A DNA stretch of 52,856 nucleotides from positions 1-52,856 of the IMG/VR virus record IMGVR_UViG_3300028399_000002. The stretch is one strand, 5' to 3'. Source of the DNA: a virus. Lineage: Duplodnaviria > Caudoviricetes. Shown piece by piece: positions 1 to 52,856 of the stretch. The position numbers and the translations under genes are program-made. Below the pieces are notes generated by a model. That model made no database searches, was not told where the DNA came from, and worked only from the letters and a program-made list of their open reading frames with translations. The first letter of the stretch is position 1; every line of letters begins with the position of its first letter.

Positions 1-127
1 ATAGATACTCTTAGGAAGGAAAATTTAGGTTGTGTTCCGCTTCCTAAAGAAGTACATGAGTTGAGATACAAGATTCACTTGGCTCTCAGAAAAAGAAAAA
101 GTAAGTCCCCTTCAGAGGTGACTCTGA
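1..127. repeat. 127-bp terminal direct repeat (copy 1; copy 2 at 52730-52856), probable circular-assembly overlap
   Basis: Exact identity of 1-127 with 52730-52856. An ORF and an intron read straight through the join, giving a 52,729-bp circle. Confidence 0.95.
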
Positions 128-252
128 AGTGCAAAGCTCCGAAATTGCGGGGAAACCCTAACGTAAAGTCGAGGGCAATCCGCAGCCAAGCCTCTGATGA
201 GGAAGGTTCAACGACTATAATGGAGCCATCTCAAGACGAGATGATGGGATAG
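1..252 (+). CDS. C-terminal part of the intron-encoded LAGLIDADG homing endonuclease (starts at 52412; 189 aa in total)
   Basis: In frame with the ORF from 52412 across the circular join; it contains the 61..252 track ORF. Confidence 0.88.
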   Translation: MDTLRKENLGCVPLPKEVHELRYKIHLALRKRKSKSPSEVTLKCKAPKLRGNPNVKSRAIRSQASDEEGSTTIMEPSQDEMMG

Positions 253-289
253 TCTGAGCTGCATGGAAACATGCAGAATAACAAAACTG

Positions 290-311
290 TTACGGTCATA
301 TCGTAAGCTAA
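290..311 (+). CDS. Exon 2 of the major capsid protein gene (T TAC GGT CAT ATC GTA AGC TAA)
   Basis: Joining ...TGG AT (52389) to base 290 restores W-I-Y-G-H-I-V-S-stop. UUAC pairs with the IGS GUAA as P10. Confidence 0.85.
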
Positions 312-36003: not shown

Positions 36004-36079
36004 CAGGGTGTAGCTCAATTGGTAGAGCTGGTGCTTTGGGAGCATCAGGCTGGAGGTTCGAGTCCTCCCACCCTGACCA
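36004..36079 (+). tRNA. trnP: tRNA-Pro (anticodon TGG)
   Basis: Acceptor CAGGGTG/CACCCTG, D arm GCTC/GAGC, anticodon loop TTTGGGA, GGTTCGAGTCC T arm, A73 and encoded CCA. Confidence 0.96.
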
Positions 36080-42893: not shown

Positions 42894-43258
42894 TGGATTT
42901 AGGTAAAGCTTTATTATACCTTTTCCCTGAGGCTAAACCTGGCGTAGACTATGTTCTTCAGGATGATAGTGATGGGAAAGGACCTTATATAAAGGAATGG
43001 AATCTTCCGGACCCTATTCCCGATAAGCCAACATTGGTAGATGCTGAAAAGCAGTATGATTTGCAAATAAAGGCTAATACCTATAAGAAGAAAAGAAAGA
43101 AAGAGTATCCCAGTATAGGAGATCAGCTTGATGTTTTATGGAGTGTATTGGATTCTGCTGGTATCGTTGCGGCAGACCCCACAAAACCTAAAGATACTCC
43201 AGAGGGGATGTTGGCTTTTATAAAATCTATTAAGGCAAAGTACCCGAAGAATGGTTAA
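42893..43258 (+). CDS. XkdW-like tail fibre accessory/chaperone
   Basis: LQDDSDGKGPYIKEWN..PIP, EYPSIGDQLD, IKAKYPK. Confidence 0.75.
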   Translation: MDLGKALLYLFPEAKPGVDYVLQDDSDGKGPYIKEWNLPDPIPDKPTLVDAEKQYDLQIKANTYKKKRKKEYPSIGDQLDVLWSVLDSAGIVAADPTKPKDTPEGMLAFIKSIKAKYPKNG

Positions 43259-46200
43259 TAATGCTAAAATAGTTAATCAGCTGAACGCTTTTACCAATAT
43301 GTTCAAGTTCAAGTCAACTTGGGCATTCAAGAAGCTGATTACTTCACCAAGTAAGAAGATAGGTATCTTCTCCGGAAATCAAATGGGTAAATGCCTGTTT
43401 TTAAAGGAGAAATTGCTCACTGACTCAGGTTTGGTAGAAGCTGGAAAACTGAAAGGTCCCTCTTTGGGCGGCGAGACACTTGCAAATACTGTTTTTGAAG
43501 ATGATGTTTATGAAGTAACTTTTCAGACTGGCATAAAGATAAAATGTAATCTCGAACACCCGTTTTGGTGGAAGCCTTACAAAACAAAAAGAGGAGGAGA
43601 ATGGCGGTCTCTCAAAAGTATACAAGAGCATAAAATATCTACGCACGGTTCTAAGTATGGTTATGTTTACTTTGCGGATGCCTCAGAATTTAACTTAGTT
43701 GAAAATGAGCTGGTTGCTCCGAAACTTTTGGGCTATCTTTGTTCAGATGGTTATATTTCTTCTAATACGAGACAAGGTTTAAAGTTTACTAATAACAATG
43801 AAACTTTTCTTAAAGAAGTAGAAAATCTTGCTAAGGAATATTTTAATGGAATAGAGTGTAAAAGATATAAGAAAGGTAAAGGTTATGATGTGCTTTTTGT
43901 AGCTAACCATTGTAAAGGAAGTAATGCATTAAAAAATTATGTGCGAAGCTTAGAAATAAATAAAAATTCTTTTGGCAGTATTCTTGCTGGAAGGAGAGAG
44001 GATTTAAAAGAATTTGTAAAAGGTTTCTTCAATGGTGATGGGTATCTATTGATTAGGCGTAGGAAGAAAGGCTGGGGTAAACTTCCGCACATTGAAGTTG
44101 GCTTTTGTGTTGGTCCCAGCGAGAACAAGGCCTATGAACTTCAATACATACTTTGGAAACTTGGTATTTTTTCGTACGTATGTGCTGAAGAGTTTAAAAA
44201 GGCAAAGAACACTTTTTATCGAGTAAAAATTAATTCTTTTGATGTGCCAAGAATACTTGAGTTTTTAGAGGATACTAAGTACCCTGAAAAGTTTAAAGAA
44301 GCGAAGGAGATACTCAAGAAGAATCCTAATAAAAGAAATGAAAATAGAAATTGGGTATCTATAAAAAGTATCGAGTATGTTGGTAGGAAGAAAGTTGCTG
44401 GTATAACTACAAGTAGTGGAGAGCTCATCTCATATTGCGGCATGAAGACTCACAATACTTGTAGTGTTGCCTATCAGTATGTTCTTAGGATTCTCGGTCT
44501 GCATCCTGTACCGGAAAAGAATGTTGTTTACTTTGAATGTATTAACGGCCACACTTTTCAGCCGTTGGTTGCAATGAAGCTTGAGAAATGTGACAAATGC
44601 GGTGAGCCTCTTGCGTTACATGAAAGGTCCAGTAGAGTTTTTAGGTTTGCTTCTCAAACTCTACCTGGGCAAAGTAAGAATGTAAGTGATTCCGGTGAAA
44701 GTGCGGAAATCAAAAATACTCAGTATCCTGAATTTAAAAAGTGGCTCCCGAAGATGTTGATAAAAGACGATATTACAATTCGTAATACATCAATGATAAT
44801 CAAGGACATATTTAATGGTCCAGACATTATTGTTGAATTTGTGTCGTATAACCAAACTGTTCAGGGTACTGCTGGAGTTCAGCGTTGTGTGGCAAAGGAT
44901 CAAAGAGTTTTAAAGTCGAATGGTGTTTGGACTAAAATTCAAGATATAAAACCTGGTGATGAGTTAATTTGTGAAGCTCTCGGGGGTTACGGGAAGAGAC
45001 AAAGGGTAAATAAGGTAAAAAAAGCAGGACTTACTGGTATAAAGGATGTTTACAGGTTTAATTGCCAGAAAGGTATTTCTTTTGAAGTTACTTTAGATCA
45101 TCCAATCATGGTTCCAGGTAATGGCTCTGCTAAGTATAAGCTTGCTGGCGATTTAAAAGTTGGGGATTATGTGACTTGCAAACTGAGTGATATAGAGGGT
45201 GAAGATACTCTCGAAGATTGGAAGGTTGCTTTGCTTGGTTTATATCTCGGTGATGGTAGTAGTGCTTCAAAGAAATATGTAAAAATAACTAATAGTAACA
45301 AGGAATTAATTCAGTCTTTGGAAAGTGTTCTACCGGATTATTTGTATCTGAGAAAAGTTGAGATTGGCAATCATGTTCCAGATTACTATATCTCAAGTAA
45401 AACTGTTAGAAAGAATGAGGTTAAAGACTTTTTAGTATCCTTAGGTTTATGGGGTAAGACGGCTTGTGACAAGTTTGTACCGGATGAAATATTTAAGCAG
45501 TCAAGAAGTAAGATAGCTCTCTTTTTAAGGTATCTTTTTGCTGCGGATGGTTGGGCGAGTGGTCATACTATAGGTTACTGTTCGACTTCTGAGAGGCTTT
45601 GTCAAGATGTTTTTCTTTTGCTTCGCAGGCTTGGTATAAGAAGTAGTATAACTAAGAAAACTTTTTGTAATGGTTGGAGTACACAATGGTGGGTTACAAT
45701 TAATGCTTCGCGCGATGTGCTTACTTTCATAGATAAAGTTGGTATAGAAGGTAAAGACTTGGTTAAGGTAAAGGATGAAGCTACGCGTAGGTTTAATGTA
45801 AGAAACAAGAAGTCTTTGGGTAGTAACAATCTTCCCCAAAAGGTAAAGATAAAATCCATAGAGTATGTAGGTAAGAAAGAAGTTTATGACATTATGATGG
45901 AGACTGGCGGTTGGGATGAACGTGTAAAAAACGGGATAAAGAAGCAGAGAGGTGTTGCCAGAAGCCCGCGAAATAACTTTCTAATTCAAGGTGGAGTTGT
46001 TGTTCACAACTGCTCGATCTGGCTCGATGAAGAAGCCCCGTATGATTTTTATGAAGAGCAGCTCCCCAGACTTATTGCAGAAAACGGTGATATGATATTT
46101 ACCCTTACTCCAGCAAGTTATATAAGCTGGATGCATGATTATATTTTTGATAAGGCTAAGATATACTATAGGACTCAAGCTGTTTGTGATTTTCTAAAGA

Positions 46201-47144
46201 AGTACGAGAATAGGGATGTTAAGCGAATTGAGGTTACTGACAATCCTCATGACATAGTAGTAATACAAGCGGCTACTGATGACAACCCTGTTCTTGATAA
46301 GAATGCGATAGAGTCTCAATTTGAGACTATTGATGATACTGATGTACTTGCTATTCGTCGTTATGGGATATTCAAGCAGGTATCTGGTAGGATTTACAAG
46401 GATTTTGAAGCTGTTCATGTTATTGATGGCGATAAGTATTTTCCGGAGGGTATACCACACCATTACCTATTTGCTCGCGGGGTCGACTATCATCCTCAGA
46501 CTCCATGGGCTATAGGTATGATAGCTTTGTCTCCGACAAATGAAGCTTTTATTTTCGGTGATCTTGAGATATCGCCGGAAAGGTATACGGTTGCTGAAAT
46601 TATGGCTGAAGTTGCGAGACTCGGAGGTGATTATAAGTTTAAGTTTAATAAAATTGATCCGCTTGCGGAAGCGAATAAGAAAGACGGAGTTACTGTACTT
46701 GAAGACATAAACAGGATTTTTTATGAATATTCAAGAGAAGGTCTTTGCTACGGTGCTTATTGGTCAACGTGGGATACAAAAGGTGAAAGAGGTAGAGATG
46801 AGATACGTAAAAGATTGAAGAATGCGAAGCGTTGCGGTAAACCTTTCAATAACAAAGTTGTAGTTGATGGTAAGGAAGAATACCTTCCTACTCTTTGGGT
46901 TTTCTCTAAATGTAGACATGCTATAAAAAGTATGAAATTGTGGCGATGGGAAGAGTGGGGTGACTCAAAAGCTATTGTCACGAAAGATAAGAAAAATAAG
47001 CCTGAACAGAAATGGTCTCATATGAATATGGTATGGGAAGCAATATTTAAAGAACGAGGCTTTGTTCCGCCGAGGGTCAGAAATCCTTTTGAGATGAATA
47101 GGTACAGAAAGAAAAATCCAGGTTATTTTAAAGGGCGTAGGTAA
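43251..47144 (+). CDS. terL: Terminase large subunit precursor with two inteins (567 aa after splicing)
   Basis: Walker A GNQMGK|T, Walker B IWLDEE, TLTP, DNP, nuclease GVDYH; directly upstream of the portal. Confidence 0.92.
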   Translation: MVNNAKIVNQLNAFTNMFKFKSTWAFKKLITSPSKKIGIFSGNQMGKCLFLKEKLLTDSGLVEAGKLKGPSLGGETLANTVFEDDVYEVTFQTGIKIKCNLEHPFWWKPYKTKRGGEWRSLKSIQEHKISTHGSKYGYVYFADASEFNLVENELVAPKLLGYLCSDGYISSNTRQGLKFTNNNETFLKEVENLAKEYFNGIECKRYKKGKGYDVLFVANHCKGSNALKNYVRSLEINKNSFGSILAGRREDLKEFVKGFFNGDGYLLIRRRKKGWGKLPHIEVGFCVGPSENKAYELQYILWKLGIFSYVCAEEFKKAKNTFYRVKINSFDVPRILEFLEDTKYPEKFKEAKEILKKNPNKRNENRNWVSIKSIEYVGRKKVAGITTSSGELISYCGMKTHNTCSVAYQYVLRILGLHPVPEKNVVYFECINGHTFQPLVAMKLEKCDKCGEPLALHERSSRVFRFASQTLPGQSKNVSDSGESAEIKNTQYPEFKKWLPKMLIKDDITIRNTSMIIKDIFNGPDIIVEFVSYNQTVQGTAGVQRCVAKDQRVLKSNGVWTKIQDIKPGDELICEALGGYGKRQRVNKVKKAGLTGIKDVYRFNCQKGISFEVTLDHPIMVPGNGSAKYKLAGDLKVGDYVTCKLSDIEGEDTLEDWKVALLGLYLGDGSSASKKYVKITNSNKELIQSLESVLPDYLYLRKVEIGNHVPDYYISSKTVRKNEVKDFLVSLGLWGKTACDKFVPDEIFKQSRSKIALFLRYLFAADGWASGHTIGYCSTSERLCQDVFLLLRRLGIRSSITKKTFCNGWSTQWWVTINASRDVLTFIDKVGIEGKDLVKVKDEATRRFNVRNKKSLGSNNLPQKVKIKSIEYVGKKEVYDIMMETGGWDERVKNGIKKQRGVARSPRNNFLIQGGVVVHNCSIWLDEEAPYDFYEEQLPRLIAENGDMIFTLTPASYISWMHDYIFDKAKIYYRTQAVCDFLKKYENRDVKRIEVTDNPHDIVVIQAATDDNPVLDKNAIESQFETIDDTDVLAIRRYGIFKQVSGRIYKDFEAVHVIDGDKYFPEGIPHHYLFARGVDYHPQTPWAIGMIALSPTNEAFIFGDLEISPERYTVAEIMAEVARLGGDYKFKFNKIDPLAEANKKDGVTVLEDINRIFYEYSREGLCYGAYWSTWDTKGERGRDEIRKRLKNAKRCGKPFNNKVVVDGKEEYLPTLWVFSKCRHAIKSMKLWRWEEWGDSKAIVTKDKKNKPEQKWSHMNMVWEAIFKERGFVPPRVRNPFEMNRYRKKNPGYFKGRR
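43392..44456 (+). mobile_element. Intein 1 (355 aa) with a LAGLIDADG endonuclease, inserted in the TerL Walker A motif
   Basis: Starts CLFLKE, block B CNLEHPF, LGYLCSDG and KGFFNGDG, ends THN followed by Thr. Confidence 0.93.
44886..46010 (+). mobile_element. Intein 2 (375 aa) with a LAGLIDADG endonuclease, inserted just before the TerL Walker B motif
   Basis: Starts CVAKDQ, block B TLDHPI, LGLYLGDG and RYLFAADG, ends VHN followed by Cys. Confidence 0.93.
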
Positions 47145-51487: not shown

Positions 51488-52411
51488 ATGGGTAATCCTG
51501 TTGTGAGTTCTGCCTTCGTTCGTTTGCTGGATGACCGTCTTGATAAGGTCAAAGAGGATATATTCAAGGACCTGCCAAGTCAGATAGACAACTTGTACAC
51601 TGTTGCAAAGTCTGAGAGGGCTTGGCACGAGTTCTTTGAAGTGGGTTCTCTGCCTGATATTCCTGAGTTCAATGGAAAGATCAGCTACTTGCCGATCCAT
51701 CCTGGTTTCCACACCAAGATTGAACATAAGGAGTATGCTGCGGGAGTCCAGTACGAGCGGAAGCTGCTGGATGACAAGCGGTATGACGTGTTCGAGAAGC
51801 GTGGTGAGAAGCTTCTGAAGAGCGCGCATCGTACTCGCGAGAAGATAGCGATTGAGCCTTTTGCCTATGCCTCTTCTGCTTCGTTCAGCTACATGACGAG
51901 CGAGGAGGGAGTGGCTCTGGTATCCAGCTCGCATACCACGAAGTCGGGTACTTCGACTTCTTCAGGCTTTGATAATGCGGGTTCGTCTGCACTGTCCAAG
52001 TCTGCGGTTGCGACTACAAGGATATTGATGAGGCAGTTCCGTAACGATATCAGTGAGAGGATAGACATGAGCGATAATTTTGCTCTTGTTGTTCCTGATG
52101 CTCTCGCGGATACCGCTTACGAGATCGTCAATACTCCTAAGGGTCTGGATACTGCCGAGGGGAACGTGAACCCTCAGTATGGTAGGTATAAAATCATCGT
52201 GCTTCCGAGGCTCGATGATTATGATACCAATAACTGGTTCATGGTGAACCTCGATCTCATGAAGGAGTCGCTTATTTGGTTTAACCGTATTGAGCCTGAG
52301 GTTGCTTCTACGTGGGATTTTGACACTCTGTTGCTCAAGACCCGTGTGTACTTCAGGTGTTCTTACGGTTGGATAGATTGGCGCTGGATTTACGGATCAA
52401 TTGTGAGCTAA
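51488..52411 (+). CDS. Major capsid protein (exon 1 ends at 52389; the unspliced frame also ends properly at 52411)
   Basis: 307 aa; DDKRY, EGVALVSSSH, LVVP, NNWF, R.SYGWIDWR motifs of Mu gpT-like/HK97-fold capsids; RBS AAGGAGGT. Confidence 0.88.
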   Translation: MGNPVVSSAFVRLLDDRLDKVKEDIFKDLPSQIDNLYTVAKSERAWHEFFEVGSLPDIPEFNGKISYLPIHPGFHTKIEHKEYAAGVQYERKLLDDKRYDVFEKRGEKLLKSAHRTREKIAIEPFAYASSASFSYMTSEEGVALVSSSHTTKSGTSTSSGFDNAGSSALSKSAVATTRILMRQFRNDISERIDMSDNFALVVPDALADTAYEIVNTPKGLDTAEGNVNPQYGRYKIIVLPRLDDYDTNNWFMVNLDLMKESLIWFNRIEPEVASTWDFDTLLLKTRVYFRCSYGWIDWRWIYGSIVS

Positions 52412-52856
52412 ATGGACGTACTCGACTCATATGTAGCAGGGTTCTTTGATGGTGAAGGTTGTATATCTTCACAGGAAAGTTGGATACCTGGAAAGTATGA
52501 AAAATTCCCGCGTATAAATCTTCAAATTTCTATAACTAATACTGATAAAGAAGTTTTGAATCTTATACGTGGAAGGTTTGGAGGTCAGATAAGCAAGCAT
52601 ACTAAGAAAACTGGTAAGTTGTGTTATGCTTGGAAACTAACAGGTAAAGACAAAATGAGGGTTTTCCTTTTGTCTGTGCTCCCCTACCTGATAGTTAAAA
52701 AAGAACAGGCTTTGCTTGCTTTGGAATTTATAGATACTCTTAGGAAGGAAAATTTAGGTTGTGTTCCGCTTCCTAAAGAAGTACATGAGTTGAGATACAA
52801 GATTCACTTGGCTCTCAGAAAAAGAAAAAGTAAGTCCCCTTCAGAGGTGACTCTGA
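52390..52856 (+). mobile_element. Group I intron, 5' part (P1 loop carrying the homing endonuclease); 629 nt in total on the circle
   Basis: GGAU|UUAC pairs with IGS GUAAGUCC (52830-52837 = 101-108) with the canonical U-G pair at the splice site. Confidence 0.88.
52412..52856 (+). CDS. Single-motif LAGLIDADG homing endonuclease (I-CreI-like); continues to base 252
   Basis: MDVLDSYVAGFFDGEGCI...ISITNTD...FGG...LPYLIVKKEQALL. The ORF track misses it because it crosses the window end. Confidence 0.92.
   Translation, partial: MDVLDSYVAGFFDGEGCISSQESWIPGKYEKFPRINLQISITNTDKEVLNLIRGRFGGQISKHTKKTGKLCYAWKLTGKDKMRVFLLSVLPYLIVKKEQALLALEFIDTLRKENLGCVPLPKEVHELRYKIHLALRKRKSKSPSEVTL

What the first reader, a model, noticed from the sequence alone, without database searches (positions are those of the whole stretch)
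52390..52856. Possible snapshot of a free-standing homing endonuclease being captured into an intron P1 loop
Seen: the P1 loop (about 430 nt) holds a capsid 3' end, a stop codon and an immediately adjacent LAGLIDADG ATG (TAAATG, same frame as the capsid). That is what a capsid gene followed by a free-standing endonuclease would look like. The intron 5' end and exon 2 share TTACGG because both must pair with the IGS. Established: a proposed route to mobile introns is invasion of ORF-less introns by free-standing endonucleases that target the same site. Inference: recombination through this shared sequence put the capsid-end-plus-endonuclease unit inside the intron. The recoded end would protect against self-cleavage, and the endonuclease would be translationally coupled to the capsid only on unspliced RNA.
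Basis: partly seen in the sequence, partly recalled or inferred. Interest (0 to 1): 0.75.

Follow-up and report, generated by a model that had tools for sequence, protein, structure and literature searches.

The report
Capsid intron carrying a spare exon end
A self-splicing intron near the end of a phage capsid gene carries its own spare copy of the gene's last seven codons followed by a homing endonuclease gene, and the same design recurs in several distant phages, so it is an established mobile element and not a one-off accident.

Summary
The window is a circular phage genome with a 127-nt end overlap. A 629-nt group I intron sits 22 nt before the capsid stop codon.

- **Intron layout:** it opens with a 22-nt in-frame substitute for exon 2 (YGSIVS*, against exon 2 YGHIVS*). 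TAA abuts the ATG of a 189-aa LAGLIDADG ORF, which runs through the ribozyme core.
- **Not a snapshot:** four other phage lineages (L091, L125, L126, L269) have the same layout. Their capsids are 36-55% and their endonucleases 33-47% identical to the window's. In all of them the substitute end is 22 nt long.
- **Other forms also exist:**
  - free-standing homologues directly after the capsid stop, with near-isogenic empty sites (L054/L055, L122/L007);
  - an endonuclease-deleted intron that keeps the substitute end (L023);
  - a ribozyme-less form with an exon-2 remnant (L009);
  - an intronless YGHIVS* allele beside the intron-bearing one in a second sample.
- **Ribozyme:** its helices covary, and exon 2 differs from the intronless allele only synonymously.

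Its direction is unresolved, and no primitive ORF-less intron was found.

The parts
51488..52389 (+). Major capsid gene, exon 1 (codons 1-300 plus the first two bases of codon 301, Ile)
   Evidence: ORF. Pfam Phage_capsid_4 covers residues 8-302. 93 related loci were fetched.
52386..52393 (+). 5' strand of P1 (GGAU|UUAC), with the 5' splice site after U52389
   Evidence: Complementary to GUAAGUCC at 52830-52837, with a U-G wobble at the splice site (read). UGGAU and GUCC are kept in all 6 introns at this site.
52390..52411 (+). Substitute exon end ('mimic'): 22 nt that complete the capsid frame as (I)YGSIVS plus TAA
   Evidence: It is 16/22 identical to exon 2 and is the best match to exon 2 in the genome. 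The substitute end is 22 nt long in 6 of 6 introns at this site.
52412..52856 (+). LAGLIDADG homing endonuclease ORF, first 148 codons; it continues at window 128-252
   Evidence: Pfam PF00961. I-MsoI, I-CvuI and I-CreI are the nearest solved relatives. Full length is 189 aa, identical to P0001.
52830..52837 (+). Internal guide sequence GUAAGUCC (also present as window 101-108)
   Evidence: Read. It lies in the first positions of model R1.
1..127 (.). Assembly overlap of the circular or terminally redundant genome; a duplicate of 52730-52856
   Evidence: Direct terminal repeats are reported.
128..252 (+). Tail of the endonuclease ORF, encoded by the ribozyme core, with stop TAG at 250-252 in the 3' strand of P7
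   Evidence: Homologous ribozyme-encoded tails occur in P0002, P0004 and P0008.
99..289 (+). Group I ribozyme from the guide sequence to the terminal G (P2 at 110-129, then P3-P9)
   Evidence: Rfam RF00028 at 66-276, 82 bits. Own model R1 scores 185.9 bits. Covariation is shown.
290..311 (+). Capsid exon 2: 22 nt, (I)YGHIVS plus TAA after splicing
   Evidence: It matches the family consensus [YF]G[H..]xV[ST]*. An intronless allele with the same peptide is seen.

Best explanation
This is a long-established composite mobile element, not a recent accident. It is a group I intron inserted 22 nt before the capsid stop codon, and its 5' end (in the P1 loop) carries a spare in-frame copy of the last seven capsid codons plus a stop. 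A single-motif LAGLIDADG homing endonuclease ORF follows directly and runs on into the ribozyme.

**Shown**
- The anatomy described above.
- Its recurrence in five phage lineages.
- Structural covariation of the ribozyme.
- Conservation of exon 2.
- Presence/absence polymorphism among close relatives.
- Related free-standing, endonuclease-deleted and ribozyme-less forms.

**Inferred mechanism**
1. Ribosomes that follow the polymerase past the 5' splice site terminate exactly where they would on spliced RNA. They release a full-length capsid protein that differs by one residue.
2. Some ribosomes re-initiate at the abutting ATG, so the endonuclease is made only from unspliced RNA and at a low level.
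3. When the endonuclease ORF is not being translated, the ribozyme folds and splices. This restores the native GHIVS end and removes the endonuclease ORF.
4. The endonuclease cuts intronless capsid alleles near the insertion site and copies the whole unit in.

**Origin (inferred, about even odds)**
The spare end is the footprint of an old merger between a 'capsid end plus free-standing endonuclease' unit and a ribozyme. Because the spare end makes both the ribozyme and the endonuclease individually dispensable, the element has since shed one or the other repeatedly.
For: **Anatomy:**

**The same layout in other lineages** (E1 ...UGGAU | 22-nt substitute end with stop | endonuclease | ribozyme ...G | 22-nt exon 2)
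- L091, with the truncated L057; L126; L125; L269. tabulates all of them.
- Ribozyme-encoded tails in P0002, P0004 and P0008 point to further examples.

**Ribozyme under structural constraint**
- Window against L091: 7 pairs with changes on both sides.
- L091 against L023: 103 of 104 cells paired and 9 pairs changed on both sides, against 0-1 in slid controls.
- The base 5' of GUCC pairs with the first base of exon 2 in 6 of 6 introns, using U-A, C-G, U-G and A-U.

**Exon 2 is used**
- In 6 of 6 introns it restores the frame and the family consensus.
- The window's exon 2 differs from the intronless allele in run X2 at 3 positions, all synonymous.
- By contrast, the substitute end in the X2/X3 variant carries a Gly-to-Glu change at 52395.

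**Tight stop/start spacing in composites**
- TAAATG, TAAATATG, TGATG, TAGTG, and TAG plus 8 nt containing GGAG.
- Free-standing copies have spacers of 9-94 nt, most with their own Shine-Dalgarno-like sequence (L054, L092, L122/L123, L159, L164, L019) and promoter-like sequence in L019 and L164.

**Mobility**
- L054 against L055: 98.7% identical, with a 432-nt endonuclease insertion exactly after the TAA.
- L122 against L007: a 496-nt insertion.
- Intron-bearing contigs (depth 6.4) and an intronless contig (depth 27.7) lie side by side in run X2.

**The endonuclease looks intact**
- GxFDGEGC is invariant in 14 of 14 aligned homologues.
- The nearest solved relative is I-MsoI, E 8.8e-10.
Against: - No RNA data: no listed run is on record as RNA, so splicing, coupling and the two protein ends are all inferred.
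- The Gly-to-Glu change in the substitute end of the X2/X3 variant suggests that the unspliced protein end is not strongly constrained. That weakens the 'fail-safe capsid' part of the model.
- P10 is weak in L023 (3 of 6 pairs, read).
- The endonuclease ORF overlaps nearly the whole ribozyme core, so translation and folding must compete. The balance between them is unknown.
- Origin is unresolved.
Confidence: 0.75

Rival explanations
1. One reading: this genome is a recent snapshot of a free-standing endonuclease, together with its neighbouring capsid end, being captured into an ORF-less intron.
For: - Free-standing homologues sit directly after the capsid stop in many relatives.
- L091's substitute end plus endonuclease is colinear with L054's capsid end plus endonuclease.
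- The window has the highest substitute-end/exon-2 identity of the six introns, 16/22.
Against: - The identical architecture is present in L091, L125, L126 and L269, whose endonucleases are 33-47% and capsids 36-55% identical to the window's. The merger therefore long predates this genome.
- A 72%-identical endonuclease with a ribozyme-encoded tail also exists (P0002).
- The only ORF-less intron at the site is a deletion derivative.
Confidence: 0.05
2. Intron first, with no capture. A normal endonuclease-bearing intron sat at this site. The substitute end arose later by local duplication or gene conversion of exon 2 onto the intron's 5' end, using the shared UUAC(GG). All free-standing copies near capsid genes then descend from the composite by loss of the ribozyme and exon 2.
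For: - In the window and in L269 the substitute end shares the variable residues of its own exon 2 (IVS; EVA).
- L109 has a related ribozyme with a LAGLIDADG ORF in the same 5' position inside a different gene.
- The intron-borne endonucleases of L126 and L109 branch deepest in the rooted trees, though with weak support and long branches.
- L009's endonuclease ORF ends in an exon-2 remnant...NGHTVT*. That motif closes no other non-capsid frame among 6543 frames of 60 aa or more.
- L269's endonuclease ORF already reads into exon 2 in frame, so a simple in-frame deletion would give an L009-like form.
Against: - In L091, L125, L126 and L023 the substitute end is no closer to the local exon 2 (9-13 of 22) than unrelated capsid ends are.
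- Gly-Ser ends like those of the window, L126 and L269 occur as real ends only in distant capsids such as L164, which carries a free-standing endonuclease, and L095. That fits an imported end better than a local copy.
- L054 and L055 share the same native capsid end, so that free-standing copy was not derived by truncating a composite in place.
Confidence: 0.3
3. The ribozyme no longer splices. The real capsid end is the substitute end, exon 2 is a dead remnant, and the endonuclease is in effect free-standing.
For: - The unspliced ORF already encodes a full-length capsid.
- Ribozyme-less relatives are viable designs (L054, L009).
- The endonuclease ORF overlaps the core.
Against: - Compensatory changes keep P2, P3, P4, P6, P8, P9 and P9.1 paired across lineages.
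- Exon 2 keeps frame, length and consensus in 6 of 6 introns.
- Exon 2 differs only synonymously from the intronless allele.
- The substitute end, not exon 2, carries the radical Gly-to-Glu change in the X2/X3 variant.
Confidence: 0.07
4. Assembly artefact or chance resemblance, for example a chimera of intron-bearing and intronless variants joined across the circular junction.
For: - The feature spans the window's ends.
- Run X2 shows that several variants coexist and break contigs at this site.
Against: - One 51.5-kb contig of run X1 covers the stretch without differences, although it may be the source of this DNA.
- Independent contigs from X2 (52358-52688) and X3 (52258-52580) cross the exon 1/intron junction into the endonuclease.
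- Five other contigs from other samples show the same layout.
- The substitute end is the single best genome-wide match to exon 2.
Confidence: 0.01

Closest known systems
Convergence of a free-standing endonuclease and an ORF-less intron on one site ('collaborative homing'; Zeng et al. 2009, Bonocora & Shub 2009), as summarised in PMC3984707. [quoted passage not shown] The original papers were not held.
   Same: - Related endonucleases occur both free-standing beside the target gene and inside an intron in that gene.
- An illegitimate recombination is proposed to move the endonuclease gene into the intron.
   Different: - Here the intron-borne copy brings a complete in-frame substitute for the downstream exon and lies in the P1 loop.
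- The endonuclease is LAGLIDADG; that the published T7-like example is HNH is recalled, not seen.
- The independent ORF-less partner intron was not found, and direction is unresolved.
- Cleavage sites are untested.
The endonuclease-gene invasion hypothesis from T4 sunY/I-TevII (Loizos et al.), as summarised in PMC3984707 (passages)
   Same: Intron sequence next to the endonuclease ORF resembles the exon junction that is the enzyme's target. Here exon 1 plus the substitute end re-creates a look-alike of the intronless site.
   Different: - The resemblance here is a whole translated gene end with its stop codon, and it is conserved in length (22 nt) in six introns.
- It lies on one side of the ORF only.
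Fungal mitochondrial genes followed by endonuclease ORFs and then a partial C-terminal duplicate of the gene (atp6 and cob in Endoconidiophora resinifera, PMC6279837; passages)
   Same: - A gene end, then endonuclease ORF(s), then a second copy of the gene's C-terminal coding part.
- L009 is exactly this layout.
   Different: - In the window a working-looking ribozyme lies between the endonuclease and the second copy, so RNA splicing can select the downstream copy.
- The host is a phage, and the duplicate is 22 nt.
Known group I introns in phage capsid genes: mycobacteriophage LittleE, with a LAGLIDADG gene on the opposite strand and splicing shown by RT-PCR; lactococcal phage Tuc2009 is cited there (PMC3706429; passages)
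   Same: A group I intron with an I-CreI-like LAGLIDADG gene inside a major capsid gene of a tailed phage.
   Different: - The passages read describe no substitute exon end and no stop/start abutment.
- The position in the gene and the ORF orientation differ.
- There is no sequence relationship: capsid tblastn against 50,697 phage records gave 3 hits, all at 27.6% identity or less.

Membership tests
Group I intron (Rfam RF00028) | Covariance-model match above the curated threshold | tested here: met
   Window 66-276 scores 82 bits against a gathering score of 50, E 2.1e-19, and the match was repeated on the genome record.
Group I intron (Rfam RF00028) | P1 formed by the exon 1 end and an internal guide sequence, with a U-G wobble at the 5' splice site; P10 with exon 2 | tested here: met
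   - GGAU|UUAC pairs with GUAAGUCC as 8 contiguous pairs, and exon 2 UUAC pairs with GUAA (read).
- The first P10 pair covaries in 6 of 6 related introns.
Group I intron (Rfam RF00028) | Terminal G and conserved core helices P3-P9, kept by compensatory change | tested here: met
   - G289 ends a ...AACAAnACUG motif that is shared by most of the 23 loci found with the P7-P9 28-mer.
- 9 of 52 pairs changed on both sides between L091 and L023, with 99% of cells paired.
- 7 such pairs between the window and L091.
Group I intron (Rfam RF00028) | Self-splicing activity | not testable with these tools
   No RNA run is listed for this DNA. The test needs in vitro transcription or RT-PCR.
LAGLIDADG homing endonuclease, single-motif I-CreI/I-MsoI type (PF00961) | Profile match above the cut-off, and one LAGLIDADG motif with its acidic residue | tested here: met
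   - PF00961 scores 32.2 bits against 23.1.
- A9, G10, F12, D13, G14, E15, G16 and C17 are invariant in 14 of 14 homologues.
- I-MsoI E 8.8e-10; I-CvuI and I-CreI also match.
LAGLIDADG homing endonuclease, single-motif I-CreI/I-MsoI type (PF00961) | Cuts the intronless allele at or near the insertion site | not testable with these tools
   A candidate natural substrate, the intronless YGHIVS* allele, was seen in run X2.
Mobile (homing) intron | Presence/absence polymorphism at one site among closely related genomes | tested here: met
   - Run X2 holds a capsid body contig 96% identical to the window (35 differences in 900 nt).
- It also holds an intron-bearing contig (depth 6.4) and a 10.3-kb contig (depth 27.7) that continues from TTACGG straight into the rest of exon 2 and its stop.
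- These are contigs, not reads, and only 38 nt of the intronless contig overlap the stretch.
Free-standing endonuclease plus ORF-less intron converging on one site (Bonocora-Shub pathway) | A free-standing homologue beside the same gene in relatives | tested here: met
   - L054, L092, L122, L123/124, L159, L164, L009/010, L012-014, L019 and L034.
- No R1 ribozyme lies downstream of them.
- Empty sites are L055 and L007.
Free-standing endonuclease plus ORF-less intron converging on one site (Bonocora-Shub pathway) | An independent ORF-less intron at the same site that never held the endonuclease | tested here: not met
   - The only ORF-less intron found (L023/L062/L275, one contig) keeps the substitute end and a 41-nt remnant of the endonuclease's 3' end.
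- Examined: 93 capsid loci, 80 + 39 endonuclease loci, and 23 + 37 ribozyme loci.
Endonuclease gene insertion with duplication of the host gene's 3' end (fungal mitochondrial type) | Two copies of the gene's C-terminal coding part flank the endonuclease ORF | tested here: met
   The substitute end (52390-52411) and exon 2 (290-311) are 16/22 identical, both in frame and both 22 nt. The ribozyme between them is the difference from that type.

The most novel reading that the evidence does not exclude
The spare exon end is the preserved footprint of the merger that created this mobile intron, and it is also what keeps the partnership loose. With a complete capsid frame upstream, either the ribozyme or the endonuclease can be lost without harm. 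The element therefore cycles between intron-borne, ORF-less and free-standing forms. Every stage survives in present-day phages: empty site, free-standing, composite, endonuclease-deleted and ribozyme-deleted. This family would then be the first natural series that records both the birth and the decay of a mobile group I intron, in a bench-testable system.
Probability: 0.4. Interest if true: 0.8.

Novelty: new variant of a known kind. Interest (0 to 1): 0.7.

Why it matters
How ribozymes and homing endonucleases came together is a long-standing question. So far it rests on two indirect cases, both summarised in PMC3984707 (passages).

This phage family offers one target site with all the forms side by side:
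- an empty allele;
- free-standing endonucleases;
- composite introns in five lineages;
- an endonuclease-deleted intron;
- a ribozyme-deleted form.

A built-in substitute exon end marks the junction in all of them. That makes several things directly testable:
- the order of events;
- the enzyme's target;
- self-protection by recoding;
- the interplay of translation and splicing.

It also shows a way for an intron to be harmless even when it fails to splice. Finally, Rfam at its gathering threshold missed two of the three related introns it was given, L091 and L023.

Tried and rejected
**Steps that led nowhere or gave false negatives**
- Rfam at gathering threshold on 75 capsid loci found nothing. 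This was partly a false negative: my own model R1 later found ribozymes in L091 and L023/L062. I therefore do not use Rfam's blanks as evidence.
- A pattern joining the intron's 3' end to an exon 2 that codes [YF]GH gave 4 hits in viral contigs. None lay next to a capsid or endonuclease homologue, so they are chance matches.
- Capsid and endonuclease tblastn against GenBank phages gave only distant hits: 27.6% or less, and 35.3% or less in Streptomyces phages.
- The genome-contig scan with the endonuclease alignment gave 39 loci at 42% identity or less, none beside a related capsid.
- No RNA holder was listed for the stretch, so expression and splicing could not be examined.
- The window is cut inside the intron, so no reference spanning both splice sites could be laid. 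Only the exon 1 side was laid.
- Parts of the stretch without cover in X2 and X3 are not interpreted.

**Ideas considered and dropped**
- 'Serine at the His position occurs only in substitute ends.' This is false: 7 of 73 distinct real ends, all in distant capsids, have it.
- 'Intron-borne endonucleases form a supported clade.' The 96/93 clade was not recovered once L269 was added.
- A pseudo-palindrome at the insertion site. I looked by eye only, it was not convincing, and I make no claim.

**Literature**
- Five searches and passages of three papers turned up no description of an intron carrying an in-frame substitute of its downstream exon in a phage capsid gene.
- This is not proof of absence. 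Subscription papers are not held, and Bonocora & Shub 2009 itself was not held.
- Supplements were not consulted.
Full report
**What is in the window**

The 52,856-nt window is a complete virus record whose first 127 nt repeat its last 127 nt. The feature at 52390-52856 therefore continues at window 128.

The ORF 51488-52411 is a major capsid protein (Pfam Phage_capsid_4, residues 8-302 of 307). It sits between a portal gene (PF23899) and further structural ORFs. It ends ...WRWIYGSIVS-TAA. The next triplet, in frame, is the ATG of a LAGLIDADG ORF (PF00961).

Read around the circle, that ORF is 189 aa. It stops at 250-252 inside a group I ribozyme, which Rfam places at 66-276 (82 bits against a threshold of 50).

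The splice sites follow from pairing:
- GGAU|UUAC (52386-52393) is complementary to GUAAGUCC (52830-52837, the same as 101-108), with a U-G wobble at the splice site.
- The intron ends ...AACAAAACUG at G289.
- Exon 2 (290-311) starts UUAC and reads (I)YGHIVS-TAA after ligation.

The intron is 629 nt and the P1 loop 436 nt. The first 22 intron bases and the 22 bases of exon 2 are 16/22 identical. No other 22-mer in the genome reaches 16/22.

**Relatives of the capsid**

Scans with the capsid protein gave 35 viral and 58 metagenomic loci, most of them 50-69% identical.

Every capsid frame that reaches a stop ends in the same seven-residue pattern. Over 73 distinct real ends:
- position 1 is Y or F in 71;
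- position 2 is G in 71;
- position 3 is H in 52, and otherwise M, S, Q, N or A.

Serine at position 3 occurs only in distant capsids, at 40% identity or less. Exon 2 of the window fits the majority pattern, and its substitute end carries the minority serine.

**The composite is not unique**

The same order of parts was read at DNA level in four further lineages. The order is: exon 1 ending UGGAU, a 22-nt in-frame substitute end with a stop, a LAGLIDADG ORF, a homologous ribozyme, a terminal G, and a 22-nt exon 2.

| Locus | Substitute end | Exon 2 | Notes |
|---|---|---|---|
| L091 (and truncated L057) | AGHQVS* | FGHNVT* | |
| L126 | FGSQVS* | YGQNVS* | |
| L125 | MGHEVS* | YGHQVS* | Has a second endonuclease-bearing intron earlier in the same capsid gene |
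| L269 | FGSEVA* | YGHEVA* | |

tabulates all of them. Their capsids are 36-55% and their endonucleases 33-47% identical to the window's.

Three database proteins (P0002 at 72%, P0004 at 62%, P0008 at 51% identity) have C-terminal tails that are translations of the ribozyme core.

**The ribozyme and exon 2 look functional**
- The window and L091 ribozymes align at 75% column identity, with 7 pairs changed on both sides.
- L091 and L023 keep 103 of 104 cells paired over ten helices. Nine pairs changed on both sides, against 0-1 in slid controls.
- By direct reading of the alignment, P3, P4, P5, P8 and P9 also change in a compensatory way between the window/L091 type and the L125/L126 type, which lacks P2.
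- The base just 5' of GUCC pairs with the first base of exon 2, and with the first intron base, in 6 of 6 introns, using four pair types.
- Exon 2 keeps length, frame and consensus in 6 of 6.

**Other states of the same site**

*Free-standing endonuclease, no ribozyme.* Model R1 found nothing downstream of these: L054, L092, L122, L123/124, L159, L164, L009/010, L012-014, L019, L034 and the frameshifted L053.

*Empty sites.*
- L055 is 98.7% identical to L054 over 1469 nt and lacks exactly the 432 nt that follow the capsid TAA.
- L007 lacks the 496-nt insertion of L122.

*Endonuclease deleted.* L023 (also fetched as L062 and L275) has a 294-nt intron at the same site.
- Its substitute end is MGMNVS* and its exon 2 is YGQNVT*.
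- Its ribozyme is intact in structure.
- A 41-nt spacer aligns with the last codons of L091's endonuclease ORF.

*Ribozyme absent but exon 2 remnant present.* L009/L010 have a capsid ending YGHTVS*, then 16 nt, then a 132-aa endonuclease whose last residues are ...NGHTVT*. Among 6543 stop-to-stop frames of 60 aa or more in all loci, the end motif closes 92 capsid frames and, apart from those, only this ORF. L269's endonuclease ORF already runs in frame into exon 2, so an in-frame deletion of the ribozyme would give the L009 form.

*Polymorphism in nature.* This comes from run X2, a different study from the probable source run.
- A 9.3-kb contig carries the capsid body at 96% identity.
- A 331-nt contig (depth 6.4) crosses into the intron.
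- A 10.3-kb contig (depth 27.7) goes from TTACGG straight on to the rest of exon 2 and a stop, coding YGHIVS*.
- That allele differs from the window's exon 2 at three bases, all synonymous.
- The intron-bearing variant in X2 and X3 has a Gly-to-Glu change in the substitute end.

These are contigs laid at 80% likeness, and the intronless contig overlaps the stretch by only 38 nt. Linkage to the same genome is therefore likely but not proven.

**How it probably works (inferred)**

The stop of the substitute end abuts or overlaps the endonuclease start in four of five composites: TAAATG, TAAATATG, TGATG and TAGTG. The fifth has 8 nt containing GGAG. Free-standing copies have spacers of 9-94 nt, most with their own Shine-Dalgarno-like sequence and, in L019 and L164, promoter-like sequence.

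My reading of the spare end is as follows:
1. It lets ribosomes that enter the intron finish a full-length capsid protein at the normal distance.
2. It then hands a fraction of those ribosomes to the endonuclease ORF.
3. Translation of that ORF through the core competes with folding.
4. Untranslated copies splice, which restores the native end and discards the endonuclease ORF.

The Gly-to-Glu variant suggests that the spliced product is the one that matters for the virion. It also suggests that the spare end is kept more for termination, coupling, P1 pairing or target disguise than for its exact peptide.

**Origin**

- L091's substitute end plus endonuclease aligns continuously with L054's true capsid end plus endonuclease.
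- Substitute ends fall within the natural range of real ends. They include Gly-Ser ends like that of L164, which has a free-standing endonuclease.
- Related ribozymes without any endonuclease are common in other phage genes: 23 loci share a 28-mer of P7-P9, and only one of them holds a homologous endonuclease.

Against a simple capture story:
- The only ORF-less intron at this site is secondary.
- L009 points to ribozyme loss.
- L109 shows the same ORF position in a related intron elsewhere.
- The endonuclease trees do not decide. A 96/93 clade of five intron-borne and four unplaced proteins dissolved when L269 was added. The best tree then separates the 8 intron-borne rows from the 9 free-standing rows by one branch with support 33/50. 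Rows left out were P0009 (fragment) in both trees and L125a in the second.

I put an old merger of a capsid-end-plus-endonuclease unit with a ribozyme at about even odds. A recent capture in this genome I put at about 0.05.

**Comparison with what is known**

Capsid-gene group I introns with LAGLIDADG genes are known in phages (LittleE; Tuc2009 is cited there; PMC3706429, passages). The two published routes to composite introns are sequence look-alikes of the target beside the ORF (sunY/I-TevII) and convergence of a free-standing enzyme and an ORF-less intron on one site (PMC3984707, passages). Gene, then endonuclease ORFs, then a C-terminal duplicate of the gene is known from fungal mitochondria (PMC6279837, passages).

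What I did not find in five literature searches is an intron that carries a complete, translated, length-matched substitute for its downstream exon, or a single site with all the intermediate forms.

I file it as a new variant of a known kind, a mobile group I intron with a LAGLIDADG endonuclease. All sequence-level membership features of that kind are met. Activity is untested.

**Verdict**

The element is real, conserved and polymorphic. The 'snapshot' claim is rejected. The direction of its origin remains open, with concrete tests available.

Noticed in passing
window 43251-47144: A 1297-aa ORF upstream of the portal gene holds an intein with a LAGLIDADG_3 domain (residues 582-884; Intein_splicing 39.6 bits, LAGLIDADG_3 101.6 bits). 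I confirmed one intein region only, and the TerL identity was not tested.
   Followed up: partly
L125 647-1254 and 1290-1907: One capsid gene carries two group I introns, each with its own LAGLIDADG ORF. The first is mid-gene with the ORF placed after P6. The second is at the 3'-end site studied here.
   Followed up: partly
L126 1475-1645; L095 5810-6040; L258: Further ORF-less introns of the same ribozyme family lie at or just before the 5' part of capsid homologues (R1 75.8 and 59 bits). Capsid genes of this phage group seem to be intron hot spots, with at least three sites.
   Followed up: no
L091 675-890; L023 3961-4198: Rfam's Intron_gpI model at gathering threshold missed both ribozymes, although they are clear homologues of the window's intron (149 and 117 bits with model R1).
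   Followed up: yes
window 52395 (runs X2, X3): The intron-bearing relatives in two other runs have G>A here. This turns the otherwise near-invariant Gly of the substitute capsid end into Glu, while exon 2 shows only synonymous differences from the intronless allele.
   Followed up: partly
L009 2510-2989 and 3959-4357; L017; L059: Some relatives carry a second, distant LAGLIDADG gene immediately upstream of the capsid gene as well as one downstream.
   Followed up: no
L012, L019, L034 (endonuclease ORFs of 248 aa): These free-standing endonucleases have a C-terminal extension of about 100 aa, with paired cysteines and a basic tail, which the intron-borne ones lack. It may be an added DNA-binding domain.
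   Followed up: no
L095-L117 and L241-L277: A large family of phage group I introns shares an almost invariant 28-nt P7-P9 segment and a ...AACAAnACUG 3' end. 23 and 37 viral contigs matched two exact patterns, most of them without a homologous endonuclease.
   Followed up: partly
window 36004-36076: A tRNA gene (Rfam tRNA, 67.2 bits).
   Followed up: no
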